DNA of 64,000 nt from a virus. Taxonomy: Duplodnaviria > Caudoviricetes. The first letter of the stretch is position 1. Every line of letters starts with the position of its first letter. Of this stretch, positions 37,261-45,267 are shown one piece after another. The position numbers were made by a program, and so were the translations under genes. Location: the IMG/VR virus record IMGVR_UViG_3300013382_000004; one strand, given 5' to 3'. The notes under the pieces are model-generated. The model saw only the letters and a program-made list of their open reading frames with translations. It was not told where the DNA came from and did no database searches.

Positions 37261-37396
37261 TGGTGGGAATGGAGTGACTCGAACACTCAACTTCCCGATT
37301 TGGTGTTTTAGACAAGTCTTGCACTTGCATTGAAAGTTTTACTTTTAAACTACTAAAACATAAGTCGGGCCCTCTGACCAATTGAGATACATCCCC
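37261..37396 (-). tRNA. tRNA-Ile(UAU) interrupted between positions 36/37 by a 59-nt tRNA-like insert (37301-37359)
   Basis: exons join to CCCGA-CTTATAA-TCGGG. Confidence 0.85.
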
Positions 37397-37406
37397 ATAT
37401 AAAATC

Positions 37407-37490
37407 CTAGACACTATATAAAAATCTAAAAAGCATTTATTCCAATTAAATATGTATTAGCATTTTTATTTAATTGCTGTTAGTGTCTAC
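37407..37490 (-). ncRNA. ACAGCAA stem element copy 3
   Basis: GTAGACAC-TA-ACAGCAA...GTGTCTAG; internal D-arm-like ATTTAATTGGAATAAAT. Confidence 0.75.
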
Positions 37491-37508
37491 TTCTTCAACA
37501 TTACAGGA

Positions 37509-37576
37509 CTAAACCCTTTATTATCTTTAATTTCATAAGGCAAAAATTAAGTAGTTAAATTGCTGTAAGGGTTTAC
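37509..37576 (-). ncRNA. ACAGCAA stem element copy 4
   Basis: GTAAACCC-TT-ACAGCAA...GGGTTTAG. Confidence 0.75.
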
Positions 37577-37631
37577 TTTTAAATCATCATTAAATCTTGT
37601 TTGTAGTACTCCAAACAAGTCTCAAAAATCA

Positions 37632-37698
37632 TGCACCGCGAGGGATTCGAACCCTTACTTAAGCCCTCCGTCGAGTGACCCCAACCTTGGTACGGCAC
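37632..37698 (-). ncRNA. tRNA-like RNA without a normal anticodon arm
   Basis: GU-rich acceptor GTGCCGT/GCGGTGC, T arm AGGG-TTCGAAT-CCCT, short hairpin instead of an anticodon loop. Confidence 0.55.
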
Positions 37699-37705
37699 TT
37701 ATAAA

Positions 37706-37836
37706 CTAGACGCTTAAAACTAAAAGGAGAATTATGAAAGCATCATAAACTAATTAGCAAGGAACAATACCCAAAATCTTTTAAATACACTTTTTATAAA
37801 ATTTGATTGTTATTATTGTTTGCTGTAAGCGTCTAC
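37706..37836 (-). ncRNA. ACAGCAA stem element copy 5
   Basis: GTAGACGC-TT-ACAGCAA...GCGTCTAG. Confidence 0.75.
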
Positions 37837-37861
37837 GTTAGATAATTTGAATTGTTGCTTA

Positions 37862-37936
37862 TGGCAGGGATGGAAGGATTCGAACCTTCGAGTCAGGGAG
37901 TCAAAGTCCCTTGCCTTACCGCTTGGCTACACCCCT
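37862..37936 (-). tRNA. tRNA-Gln(UUG)
   Basis: AGGGA-CTTTGAC-TCCCT; G73; CCA. Confidence 0.92.
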
Positions 37937-38071
37937 ATATTTTTTCCTTAGCTGGTGGTTCCGATTCGCCCATCCAGAACTCCCTACTTGAGTGCCATTC
38001 TATACTCATTAGAGGCTTTCCGACTGAAGGGTATTTTAATTTATTTATCGTCTTTTAAACTACTAAGGAAT

Positions 38072-38145
38072 TGGAGTGGAAGACGGGGCTCGAACCCGCA
38101 TGAACCGCCTCGGAAGCGGTAATTTTACCCTTAAATTACTTCCAC
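38072..38145 (-). tRNA. tRNA with anticodon CCG and a glycine-type body (candidate tRNA-Gly reading CGG)
   Basis: ACCGC-TTCCGAG-GCGGT; G1-C72, U73, 4-nt variable loop, no A20. Confidence 0.8.
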
Positions 38146-38185
38146 ATTCCAAGTTTTTTAAGTTGTATCTCTCAACCACATCTTA

Positions 38186-38214
38186 AGTATAACATATACT
38201 TATCATCTTGTCAA
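38186..38214 (-). promoter_or_regulatory. promoter for the tRNA(CCG)...tRNA(CUA) unit
   Basis: TTGACA-17-TATACT with TG extension. Confidence 0.8.
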
Positions 38215-38431
38215 GTATCTTTTAAAATTTTCTTTTGGAAATCTTTTTTCGTTTAAAGTAAGAAGTATAAGAATTTTTTGATAAGAAAACAACTCAAGAC
38301 CAAGGAGTTCACAAAGGTTATCAACATCTTTCATTGTATATCTATCTTTCTTTAAAGCTTTAATCTTTTCAACAATTCCCTCTTCCAAGAATAAAAGCTC
38401 ATCCATAATAAAAATCCTCTTTTATTTGCTA

Positions 38432-42752: not shown

Positions 42753-42762
42753 ATATTATAAC

Positions 42763-42880
42763 CTAGACTCTTTTGCGTATTATTCACCACAGAGCGCCCT
42801 CTGACGAGAATCGAACTCGCTAATGATTGTTTTCAAGACAATTGTGTTAACCTTTTAAGGAATTTGCTGTAAGAGTCTAC
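42763..42880 (-). ncRNA. ACAGCAA stem element copy 10, tRNA domain permuted in the D loop, intact UGA anticodon arm
   Basis: ATTGT-CTTGAAA-ACAAT; GCGAG-TTCGATT-CTCGT; CAGAG-GGCG-CTCTG. Confidence 0.8.
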
Positions 42881-43072
42881 TTTTCAATTACTTTTCAGGA
42901 GGTTTAGCCTATATTTTTATTATAACACATCATTCATAGAATGTCAACCACTTTTTAAAATTTTCTTTTGTACTTTTTGAGAAGATTTATTTTTATTTTT
43001 TATTCTTCTCTTAAGATGTATTTATCTTACCACATTTTTAGATTTCTGTCAAGACTTTATTAGAATTTTCTT

Positions 43073-43354
43073 TTACTCAACAGCCTCATTATAAGTCATC
43101 TTCATAATATCAGGCTTAACGGGATAGAACTCACCTTTAATTCCCTTAACGATATAATCACCAACAGAAGCGTAATGGTCTCCCTCAAGGGTATTAATGA
43201 TAAGATTAGTTACAGTACCATTAATAGTATGCTGAGTAGTAACACAACAATGAGCACCAACAAATTCCATAATTTCGGTTTCATTAGTACCATCCCAAAT
43301 AACGGCTTCAATAGTAACTGGCTTCTTAGTATACTTTTTAATCATGAATTTCAC
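43073..43354 (-). CDS. conserved phage protein (KKPV.IEA...TLEG...GDYI..G..GEFYP.KPDI family); possible nucleotide-signal sponge
   Basis: family motif recognised; resemblance to Acb4-type sponges is from memory only. Confidence 0.6.
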   Translation of the reverse strand: MKFMIKKYTKKPVTIEAVIWDGTNETEIMEFVGAHCCVTTQHTINGTVTNLIINTLEGDHYASVGDYIVKGIKGEFYPVKPDIMKMTYNEAVE

Positions 43355-43729
43355 CTTCTTGTGTTTTTAAAAATTTAACCACAAGATATAGCGGCTAAGA
43401 TTTTTTTAAACCCCAGCATATTGTGGTTTAAAGATAAATAAAATGATGATTTTATTTTTACTTTTAATGGGAGCTTAACGTACTCCAAATGAGTAAAACA
43501 ACGGATTTCTTGTTTTTGAGTAAAGCATCAAGAAATATCTAACCCTACTGCTTTATTGGCAACGGAGTTATTTATACTCTCATCCGTCATTCGAGTTTGT
43601 TGTCGGCGCTCAGTCCACCATCTGGGCGAACAACTCCAAGTTCGTCGATGCGAAGACAAACTCCAAGGGTCACATCACTTCCGATGTGATAACTACAATA
43701 ATACCACCACTACTATTGTAGCATATTGC

Positions 43730-43821
43730 CCCCCCATAATTGGATTCGAACCAACTTCCTCTCCCGATGTGGTGTTTACTCACTATCAGTTAATAAGAAT
43801 GCTCCATTACACTAATGGGGA
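43730..43821 (-). pseudogene. tRNA-like RNA with an expanded, irregular anticodon arm
   Basis: TCCCCAT/ATGGGGG acceptor, D arm, GTTGG-TTCGAAT-CCAAT; no canonical 7-nt loop. Confidence 0.55.
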
Positions 43822-44153
43822 TATAAATGTTATAGACCTTTTAACTATAACTCACAGGTTCTCCCTTATACAAACAAGGTGACGGGACATTGCTGTGTTT
43901 TTAAAAGAAAGCCCTTGTTATACTTTTTCTTTCAAGGATTTAATGGTAAGAACATTTCTTGACCTATAGGTGTTCTCAAACCTACTCCTTCACCATACAT
44001 CCAAATGTACTCGCAGGTATACATTGAACATCTCATCCTTAAGGTCAACTGGGGAATCATAAAGCCGTTCGGTTTATTTTTAATTTGAGTAAACCTTCCT
44101 CAAACGCCCCTTCATCCGCTTTTTTAGAAGGATACGGAATCCACGAGTTTTGA

Positions 44154-44241
44154 CGAAGTGGACTGGACTCGAACCAGTACAGTCTTACAACTTACTACTT
44201 GTTTAGCAAACAAGGTCCTTACCAATTAGGATTACCACTCC
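44154..44241 (-). tRNA. tRNA-Ser(GCU)
   Basis: CTTGT-TTGCTAA-ACAAG; long variable arm; 3' end GTCA rather than GCCA. Confidence 0.88.
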
Positions 44242-44254
44242 ATAAATGAGCAAT

Positions 44255-44378
44255 CTTGGCACTTTTTTCTAGCCAACCACGGTTAACCATTCCTTGCTCA
44301 AGGGATACGTTAATAAGGAGTCGAACCTTACACGACGTTATTCCAAAAACATAAAATAAATTTGCTGTGAGTGTCAAC
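44255..44378 (-). ncRNA. ACAGCAA stem element copy 11 with permuted T arm and extended acceptor
   Basis: GTTGACACT/AGTGCCAAG; TAAGG-TTCGACT-CCTTA; CGTGGTTG shared with copy 6. Confidence 0.72.
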
Positions 44379-44397
44379 TTTTTAAATTTGTATCTGC

Positions 44398-44475
44398 TGG
44401 TGAGAGTAACAGGACTCGAACCTGTAAGCCTCCGCCGTGTAAAGGCGGCATTCTAACCAGTTGAACTATACTCCC
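44398..44475 (-). tRNA. tRNA-Val(UAC)
   Basis: CCGCC-TTTACAC-GGCGG. Confidence 0.92.
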
Positions 44476-44608
44476 ATATAATATTGGTTTTTCCGCCAAA
44501 TGCCAAAGGACTTTCGTATTTTACCAACAAACCTCACGTTACTTAATTTATTTATAGACGTTGAGTAATTACGTCTCAACAACACATTTTTTAGAAAGGA
44601 AAACTATC

Positions 44609-45055
44609 TTAACCCACAGCTTCTTCGGATGGACTATCCTCAGAAGGGATGGTATTGCCAGTGTTATCGACAGAGTCATCTGAAGGAACAGGGTTCTCAG
44701 TCTGTGCCAAACTCTCCTTTAACTTTTCATCATGAAGCTCACGGTTTACCTCGTATACAGCGGCTTCAATAGCCTTACGGACTTCATCTGCATCAAGAGT
44801 AATACCAAGAGACTCCATCTGCTGATTAAAATACTTTGTTGCTTCCTGCAAACGCTTTTCAATCTCCCGTGGATACATCTGCTCAACAGCTCGAACAGCA
44901 ATTAGAGCATACTTCTGAATTAGTTCTGCTGTATTAAGAGCTTCATCAATTTTATCCTGTCCAACCTTCTTACGAAGATAAGGAATAAGAAAAATTGTAA
45001 TAGCCAGAGCACAGAGACCAATTACAGCAACTACAATAGGGGTAATGTCAGTCAT
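44609..45055 (-). CDS. LL-H-family holin-like protein
   Basis: N-terminal TM + IPYL; AVRAVEQ; IEAAVYE. Confidence 0.75.
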   Translation of the reverse strand: MTDITPIVVAVIGLCALAITIFLIPYLRKKVGQDKIDEALNTAELIQKYALIAVRAVEQMYPREIEKRLQEATKYFNQQMESLGITLDADEVRKAIEAAVYEVNRELHDEKLKESLAQTENPVPSDDSVDNTGNTIPSEDSPSEEAVG

Positions 45056-45133
45056 TTTTGTACTTCCTTTTTTACATTTTGAATTATAACATCTAACAAA
45101 CGCTTTATCAAGTGTTTATTAAATAAAATTTAA

Positions 45134-45267
45134 TGGAGCAAGATACGAGATTCGAACTCGCCCTTACGGTTTTGGTCCTTTAAGTAAGACTTGAACTTAC
45201 ATCAATGGTTTTTCATTAAACTATTAAAGGGGAAGACCGTCGTGCTAACCGCTAACACTAATCCTGC
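45134..45267 (-). tRNA. tRNA-Gly(UCC) interrupted between positions 36/37 by a 58-nt tRNA-like insert (45173-45230)
   Basis: exons join to ACGGT-CTTCCAA-ACCGT; U73. Confidence 0.85.

What the first reader, a model, noticed from the sequence alone, without database searches (positions are those of the whole stretch)
37261..45267. Nested tRNAs: four tRNA genes carry tRNA-mimic inserts in the anticodon loop
Seen: tRNA-Ile(UAU), Thr(UGU), Lys(UUU) and Gly(UCC) are each split by a 50-88 nt insert that folds as a tRNA: 7-bp acceptor stem, T arm, discriminator and CCA, with no normal anticodon arm. Removing exactly acceptor +1 through CCA restores a canonical 7-nt loop (U33, A37) in all four, and the anticodon agrees with the body (e.g. 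Gly U73). Insertion points differ (36/37, 34/35, 35/36, 36/37) and the insert stems differ in sequence but keep pairing. No uninterrupted copy of these tRNAs is in the window. The inserts are far too small for group I/II introns and show no bulge-helix-bulge. Inference: a new intron type excised by tRNA-processing nucleases (RNase P at the 5' side, a cut just after CCA), then joined by an RNA ligase. All four are U34 tRNAs; Lys-UUU is the classic PrrC target. Possible roles are timed activation, evasion of anticodon nucleases, or release of decoy mini-tRNAs.
Basis: partly seen in the sequence, partly recalled or inferred. Interest (0 to 1): 0.95.

Follow-up and report, generated by a model that had tools for sequence, protein, structure and literature searches.

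The report
tRNA-shaped introns inside phage tRNAs
Four tRNA genes of a large gut phage are each split in the anticodon loop by a small insert shaped like a tRNA from its first base to its CCA tail; this recurring, barely described kind of intron is probably cut out by tRNA-trimming enzymes and resealed by a phage RNA ligase, a splicing route not yet shown for any tRNA.

Summary
Observation confirmed. tRNA-Ile(UAU), Thr(UGU), Lys(UUU) and Gly(UCC) carry 59, 88, 50 and 58-nt inserts running from acceptor +1 to CCA. A complete 216-kb relative has an insert-free Gly gene identical (76/76) to the predicted spliced product. About 70 distinct inserts occur in IMG/VR phages. With the 5' end set only by the 7-nt-loop rule, 70/71 form a 7/7 acceptor stem. 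In a scan not requiring CCA, 31/34 end in CCA. 66/69 sit in U34 tRNAs (background 43-46%). In 9 near-complete genomes all 15 interrupted genes are the only gene for their anticodon. Five long inserts carry HNH or GIY-YIG endonuclease genes. All 25 near-complete carriers encode an ATP-dependent RNA ligase-like gene. Best reading: an intron cut by host RNase P at +1 and by an unidentified nuclease after CCA, then sealed by phage Pnk/ligase (about 0.6). Splicing itself is not shown; the RNA test was inconclusive. Not wholly new: Devoto 2019 noted a tRNA-like intron in Lak phage tRNA-Thr, without mechanism and with different ends. This scan has reported the same design many times on other phage DNA.

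The parts
37261..37396 (-). tRNA-Ile(UAU) gene, interrupted at 36/37
   Evidence: conserved in L003, L112 and G005
37301..37359 (-). 59-nt tRNA-shaped insert: acceptor, D-like arm, no anticodon arm, T arm, ACCA
39373..39533 (-). tRNA-Thr(UGU) gene, interrupted at 34/35; no encoded CCA on the outer tRNA
39412..39499 (-). 88-nt tRNA-shaped insert with D arm and irregular anticodon/variable region, CCCA end; its core is 83% identical to the insert in tRNA-Pro(UGG) 34/35 of relatives
42242..42366 (-). tRNA-Lys(UUU) gene, interrupted at 35/36
   Evidence: same form in L001-L005
42283..42332 (-). 50-nt insert: acceptor + 15-nt linker + T arm + CCCA (minihelix-like)
45134..45267 (-). tRNA-Gly(UCC) gene, interrupted at 36/37; insert-free allele in G005 identical at 76/76 to the joined exons
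45173..45230 (-). 58-nt insert: acceptor, D-like arm, T arm, ACCA; 69 nt in relatives, which add an 11-nt hairpin at the anticodon-arm position
37862..37936 (-). tRNA-Gln(UUG), empty site: L112 has a 98.7% identical gene with an 85-nt insert at 35/36
42677..42752 (-). tRNA-Glu(UUC), uninterrupted here; relatives L002 and L003 carry a 66-nt insert at 36/37 with a compensatory acceptor change

Best explanation
The inserts are introns whose splice sites are defined by their own tRNA fold. In the precursor the inner element presents an acceptor stem stacked on a T arm with NCCA, which is the RNase P substrate. Step 1 (inferred): host RNase P cuts at inner +1, leaving a 3'-OH on the 5' exon. Step 2 (inferred, enzyme unknown): an endonuclease cuts just after inner A76. 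Step 3 (inferred): the exons stay paired through the outer stems. The phage polynucleotide kinase heals the 3' exon's 5' end if needed, and the phage ATP-dependent RNA ligase seals the loop. The released inner RNA is a tRNA mimic, and in some phages a complete second tRNA. Shown at DNA level: exact boundaries, gain and loss between relatives, conserved fold, sole-copy status, endonuclease cargo, ligase genes. Likely origin (inference): a mature tRNA (5'-P, CCA-OH) ligated into a healed anticodon break and fixed in DNA, then spread by recombination and homing.
For: Empty alleles fix the ends at +1 and CCA for Gly, Glu and Gln. 70/71 forced 5' ends pair 7/7 with 55 different acceptor strands; 1:72 is G-C or C-G in 70/71. 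CCA in 31/34 of a CCA-free scan. The insertion point varies relative to the outer tRNA (32/33, 34/35, 35/36, 36/37) but is fixed relative to the inner fold, so the inner fold must specify the cuts. Conserved parts are those RNase P reads: acceptor, T-loop, RCCA, mostly U at -1 (PMC11143913). 15/15 interrupted genes are the sole gene for their anticodon, including genomes with 29-40 intact tRNAs; inner Gly(UCC) in G016 and inner Asn(GUU) in G026 are likewise sole copies. 465-852-nt versions carry HNH or GIY-YIG genes in place of the anticodon arm. Pnk-like kinase next to an Rnl1-like ligase in the complete relative; Rnl1 in 5/5 relatives. RNA ligase-like gene in 25/25 carriers at least 90% complete versus 2/5 other records.
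Against: No spliced RNA demonstrated: the exact 58-nt skip seen in RNA runs X18 and X19 lies on long contigs of roughly 87-90% identical relatives and is explained by the known empty allele. No nuclease family is shared by all carriers. CCA generally inhibits RNase Z; only the Thermotoga type cuts after CCA (PMC3161902). The ligase association is weak evidence: the ten carriers compared share core genes, controls are few and unmatched, many ligase hits are below the curated cut-off, and T4-type repair genes are expected in tRNA-rich phages anyway. A few inserts end in CAA, CTA or CCT. The Lys precursor is not predicted to fold nested at equilibrium.
Confidence: 0.6

Rival explanations
1. The inserts are spliced, but both cuts are made by a dedicated phage-encoded endonuclease that reads the inner tRNA fold, not by RNase P and a host 3' nuclease.
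For: A cut exactly after CCA is not the usual Firmicutes route. The window's clade encodes a 482-aa beta-CASP metallo-beta-lactamase nuclease.
Against: That nuclease is in only 5 of 50 records, all of one clade. All-against-all comparison of ten carrier genomes showed no unexplained shared nuclease among families I could recognise. The 5' end is exactly the RNase P site.
Confidence: 0.2
2. The precursor is cut but not rejoined, or not cut at all: the inner or nested RNA acts as a decoy or sponge for host anticodon nucleases and the outer tRNA never decodes.
For: 66/69 hosts are U34 tRNAs, with Lys(UUU) the most frequent; Lys(UUU), Thr(UGU) and Asn(GUU) are PARIS targets (PMC12409363). The same region holds about ten Y-RNA-like tRNA mimics. 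No splice junction shown.
Against: Outer exons stay identical to intact alleles (76/76 for Gly) and removal always restores a canonical 7-nt loop. Interrupted genes fill exactly the missing anticodon in near-full tRNA sets. A decoy would not need this precision.
Confidence: 0.12
3. The inserts are inert fossils of ligation accidents that inactivated the genes.
For: Exact mature-tRNA ends and anticodon-loop positions fit accidental ligation into nuclease breaks. Presence is patchy among close relatives.
Against: Compensatory changes (Glu insert in L002 versus L003; Thr versus Pro insert), selective loss of only the anticodon arm, intact outer exons, and independent HNH and GIY-YIG cargo show continuing selection.
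Confidence: 0.04
4. The inserts self-splice as an unrecognised small ribozyme.
For: Precise ends; no shared splicing nuclease found.
Against: The smallest inserts are 44 nt with no conserved core beyond tRNA elements; no Rfam ribozyme match; last base A in 66/69, not the group I terminal G.
Confidence: 0.04

Closest known systems
'Enigmatic' tRNA introns of Lak megaphages (Devoto et al. 2019, PMC6784885, Fig. 4 and Table S6); remark repeated for jumbo phages in PMC13037316
   Same: Insert in the anticodon loop of a phage tRNA (Thr UGU, Gly UCC, Phe, Tyr), present or absent among relatives, with a tRNA-like body and T arm at the intron's 3' end; one was called 'a possible tRNA'.
   Different: Read by eye from Table S6, Lak introns have an unstructured leader of about 25-30 nt before the inner acceptor and end 1-2 nt after it with no CCA. 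Here the intron is exactly +1 to CCA. Neither paper's text that I searched gives a boundary rule, U34 bias, endonuclease cargo or mechanism.
Group I introns in bacterial and phage tRNA anticodon loops, with homing endonucleases
   Same: Anticodon-loop position, exact empty alleles, HNH and GIY-YIG cargo (one passes TIGR01453).
   Different: No ribozyme core, 44-135 nt, no terminal G, no Rfam match; four insertion registers.
Archaeal bulge-helix-bulge and eukaryotic TSEN tRNA introns
   Same: Short introns in the anticodon loop, cut by a protein or RNP nuclease and rejoined by a ligase; endonuclease genes can ride in archaeal introns (own knowledge).
   Different: No bulge-helix-bulge (central helix 4/4 in 1 of 69); site not fixed at 37/38; bacterial phage context; no RtcB in relatives.
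T4 Pnk-Rnl1 repair of PrrC-cut tRNA-Lys(UUU)
   Same: Same enzyme types (AAA_33 kinase with HD domain next to an Rnl1-like ligase) and same class of junction in the anticodon loop.
   Different: T4 repairs a single break made by a host nuclease; here two cuts would release an encoded insert.

Membership tests
Group I intron | P3-P9 catalytic core, usually over 200 nt | tested here: not met
   Inserts are 50-88 nt; no Rfam intron match at gathering score or at E up to 5
Group I intron | Terminal omega-G at the 3' splice site | tested here: not met
   Last base is A in 66/69 and in all four here
Group II intron | Domain V/VI and GUGYG...AY ends | tested here: not met
   No Rfam match; ends are acceptor +1 and CCA
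Archaeal BHB tRNA intron | 4-bp helix between two 3-nt bulges at the exon-intron junctions | tested here: not met
   Central helix 2/4 (Gly) and 1/4 (Thr); 4/4 in only 1 of 69 inserts
Eukaryotic TSEN intron | Fixed position 37/38 | tested here: not met
   Sites are 32/33, 34/35, 35/36 and 36/37
Lak-phage tRNA-like introns (informal group) | tRNA-like body with T arm inside the anticodon loop of a phage tRNA, present or absent among relatives | tested here: met
   against Table S6
Lak-phage tRNA-like introns (informal group) | 5' leader before the inner acceptor and no CCA end | tested here: not met
   Leader is 0 nt and end is NCCA here; Lak layout read by eye
RNase P substrate | Acceptor stem stacked on T arm (12 bp), T-loop, 3' RCCA, strong 1:72 pair | tested here: met
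   Sequence features met (PMC11143913); discriminator is a purine in 52/69, C in the Thr and Lys inserts here
RNase P substrate | Actually cleaved at +1 | not testable with these tools
   Needs an in vitro or in vivo assay
Spliced intron (any type) | Exon-exon junction in RNA of a strain whose DNA carries the insert | tested here: inconclusive
   Exact skip of 45173-45230 in two RNA runs, but on contigs of diverged relatives with no matching DNA run; empty alleles exist

The most novel reading that the evidence does not exclude
A separate class of tRNA intron that needs no ribozyme and no splicing endonuclease: its tRNA shape recruits RNase P and a 3'-end nuclease, an RNA-repair ligase joins the exons, some members release a second working tRNA, and some are mobile through homing endonucleases placed where the anticodon arm was.
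Probability: 0.6. Interest if true: 0.92.

Novelty: new variant of a known kind. Interest (0 to 1): 0.8.

Why it matters
If spliced as inferred, this is a route of tRNA splicing outside group I/II self-splicing, archaeal BHB and eukaryotic TSEN splicing, with RNase P acting as a splicing nuclease. It would explain the 'enigmatic' phage tRNA introns noted in 2019 and give a direct test: 44-60-nt inserts, known candidate enzymes and natural empty alleles as controls. It links introns to the conflict between anticodon nucleases and phage RNA repair, and offers a concrete path by which repair of a cut tRNA could create an intron. It also means tRNA finders miss or mislabel these genes, often the phage's only Lys(UUU) or Ile(UAU).

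Tried and rejected
No whole genome is held for the window; a complete relative (G005, 85% of the window covered at about 84% identity) stood in. BLAST against cultured GenBank phages found only single tRNA matches, so no cultured relative is at hand. RNA test: the 58-nt joint in runs X18 and X19 was rejected as proof of splicing, because it sits on 743-1240-nt contigs of diverged relatives that run into flanking genes, and empty DNA alleles exist; no joint was listed for Ile, Thr or Lys, with 18 joints not shown. RtcB: none in 10 records. A shared 3'-cutting nuclease: none found; the beta-CASP protein is limited to this clade. Link between insert family and insertion register: mean core identity 0.593 for same-site versus 0.583 for different-site pairs, so weak at best, though 11 of the 20 closest pairs share a site against 28% expected. 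Cellular occurrence: 16 pattern hits in 185,579 GTDB genomes, 4 truly nested, in MAG contigs; one has the exact length of phage record G004, so it is probably a binned phage. Four of my first 'control' records proved to carry long inserts and were moved to the carriers. TAG recoding in the window was not supported by a read-through test. Five further paper searches found no description of a mechanism; the library lacks most subscription journals.
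Full report
Observation. The window is part of a large AT-rich phage genome (33% GC) with a minus-strand tRNA array at about 36.1-48.3 kb. 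ARAGORN finds 16 intact tRNAs and none with the anticodons UAU, UGU, UUU or UCC. Rfam scores three over-long tRNAs at 37264-37396, 39373-39533 and 42245-42366, and scores the Gly insert on its own. A structural parser resolves four nested genes with inserts at 37301-37359, 39412-39499, 42283-42332 and 45173-45230. Each insert starts with the 5' strand of a 7-bp stem and ends T arm, 3' strand, N-CCA. Removal restores a 7-nt loop with U33 and A37. Ile, Gly and Thr inserts keep a D-like arm; the Lys insert is a minihelix with a 15-nt linker.

Boundaries are fixed by natural alleles. Five close relatives in IMG/VR carry the Lys insert. The complete relative G005 (216 kb, terminal repeats) has an insert-free Gly(UCC) gene identical at 76/76 positions to the window's joined exons. 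The window's intact Gln(UUG) is 98.7% identical to the joined exons of an interrupted gene in L112, and Glu(UUC) is filled in L002 and L003 but empty in L001 and L026. G005 has intact Thr and Gly but interrupted Pro(UGG), Lys and Ile. So inserts are gained and lost cleanly, always from +1 to the tail.

It is a family under selection. To avoid circularity I fixed the outer tRNA first, set the insert's 5' end only by requiring a 7-nt loop, and then counted pairs: 70 of 71 pair 7/7, none does at offsets of 1-3 nt, and 55 different acceptor strands are used; shuffling partners gives 3.6 pairs on average. In the scan that did not ask for the inner CCA, 31 of 34 nested cases end in CCA. Host tRNAs have U34 in 66 of 69 cases against 43-46% of intact tRNAs in the same loci; sites are 35/36 (28), 34/35 (20), 36/37 (19) and 32/33 (2). 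In GTDB only four nested cases appeared, all in MAG contigs, at least one probably a binned phage.

Signs that the insert is removed. In nine near-complete genomes, all 15 interrupted genes are the only gene for their anticodon, including genomes with 29, 33 and 40 intact tRNAs. In G016 the insert is a complete tRNA-Gly(UCC) and in G026 a complete tRNA-Asn(GUU), each the genome's only copy. Five inserts of 465-852 nt keep the same ends and carry an endonuclease gene where the anticodon arm would be: HNH by Pfam in L040 and L090, GIY-YIG above the TIGR01453 cut-off in L033 when TAG is read as Gln, and by motif in L088 and L157. Homing endonucleases typically settle in sequences that are spliced out (established for group I introns).

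Enzymes. All five close relatives encode a T4 Rnl1-like ligase above the Pfam cut-off; in G005 it follows an AAA_33 kinase with an HD domain. RtcB was not found. Over 50 records, 30 of 32 carriers (25 of 25 that are at least 90% complete) have an Rnl1-like or DRB0094-like ligase gene, against 6 of 18 others (2 of 5 complete). This is supportive only: carriers are related, controls are unmatched and were not screened genome-wide, and many hits are below cut-off. The 5' cut fits RNase P: it needs the acceptor-T stack, T-loop and RCCA, and cuts model substrates made of just these parts (PMC11143913). The 3' cut is the weak step: CCA generally blocks RNase Z, with the Thermotoga enzyme cutting after CCA as the precedent (PMC3161902). 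The clade has a beta-CASP nuclease, but only 5 of 50 records do, and no shared candidate emerged from comparing ten carriers.

RNA evidence. Laying three RNA runs and one control run showed a joint skipping exactly 45173-45230 in X18 and X19 and not in the near-identical run X1. The contigs come from relatives about 10-13% diverged and extend into flanking genes. Since empty Gly alleles exist, I count this as inconclusive.

Comparison with what is known. It fails the tests for group I, group II, BHB and TSEN introns. The nearest precedent is Devoto et al. 2019, who reported 'enigmatic' introns in Lak phage tRNAs, one possibly encoding a tRNA; a 2026 survey repeats the remark. The Lak sequences have a leader and no CCA (read by eye), so they look like a sister layout, perhaps ending at an RNase Z site. 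I found no paper that defines the +1-to-CCA rule or a mechanism. This scan's own notes list 148 findings matching my keywords, the eight shown all describing this design in other genomes; these are unchecked and were not counted as support.

Verdict. The feature is real, widespread in large phages and selected. My odds: spliced in vivo about 0.85; by RNase P, a cut after CCA and a repair ligase about 0.6. The U34 bias overlaps known nuclease targets such as those of PARIS (PMC12409363). That fits an origin in mis-repair of anticodon breaks, but it does not show that the inserts benefit the phage; they may be selfish elements that ride on tRNA maturation and repair. I class it as a new variant of a noted but unexplained kind, with a mechanism that would be a new splicing route if shown. 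Interest 0.8.

Noticed in passing
window 36368-44377 (ten copies) and 23596, minus strand: Family of stem elements starting TAGAC-like...ACAGCAA and closing on the complement 50-125 nt later; several enclose circularly permuted tRNA parts. The copy at 41776-41874 matches Rfam YrlA (E 2.7e-5, below gathering). One copy precedes a 575-aa DUF2828/VWA gene (21788-23515), possibly Ro60-like.
   Followed up: partly
window about 39320-39372, minus strand: Directly after the CCA-less outer tRNA-Thr lies a sequence that reads by eye as an HDV-like (theta) ribozyme; not matched by Rfam, not tested further.
   Followed up: partly
window 54208-55902 and tRNA 38072-38145: All four CGG codons of the UvrD gene fall on glycine motif positions (Walker A and motif III), and the tRNA with anticodon CCG has U73: possible CGG Arg-to-Gly reassignment.
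   Followed up: partly
window 36138-36212: tRNA with CUA anticodon (amber suppressor-like); a read-through test did not support TAG recoding in the window.
   Followed up: partly
window 43730-43821: Atypical tRNA-like element called Ile(GAT) by ARAGORN; relatives L003-L005 have a 26-nt longer version with an extra hairpin. It has no inner T arm, so it is not one of the nested genes.
   Followed up: partly
window 49842-53960: Thg1-like tRNA guanylyltransferase, HNH/AP2 endonuclease, PARP-domain and Macro-domain genes next to the tRNA array.
   Followed up: no
L054:2123-2273, L103:1098-1249, L074:1666-1815: Inserts that look like complete tRNAs: Gly(UCC) inside Asn, and Asn(GUU) inside Lys.
   Followed up: partly
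L033, L040, L088, L090, L157: 465-852-nt tRNA-shaped inserts carrying GIY-YIG or HNH genes; some need TAG read as Gln.
   Followed up: yes
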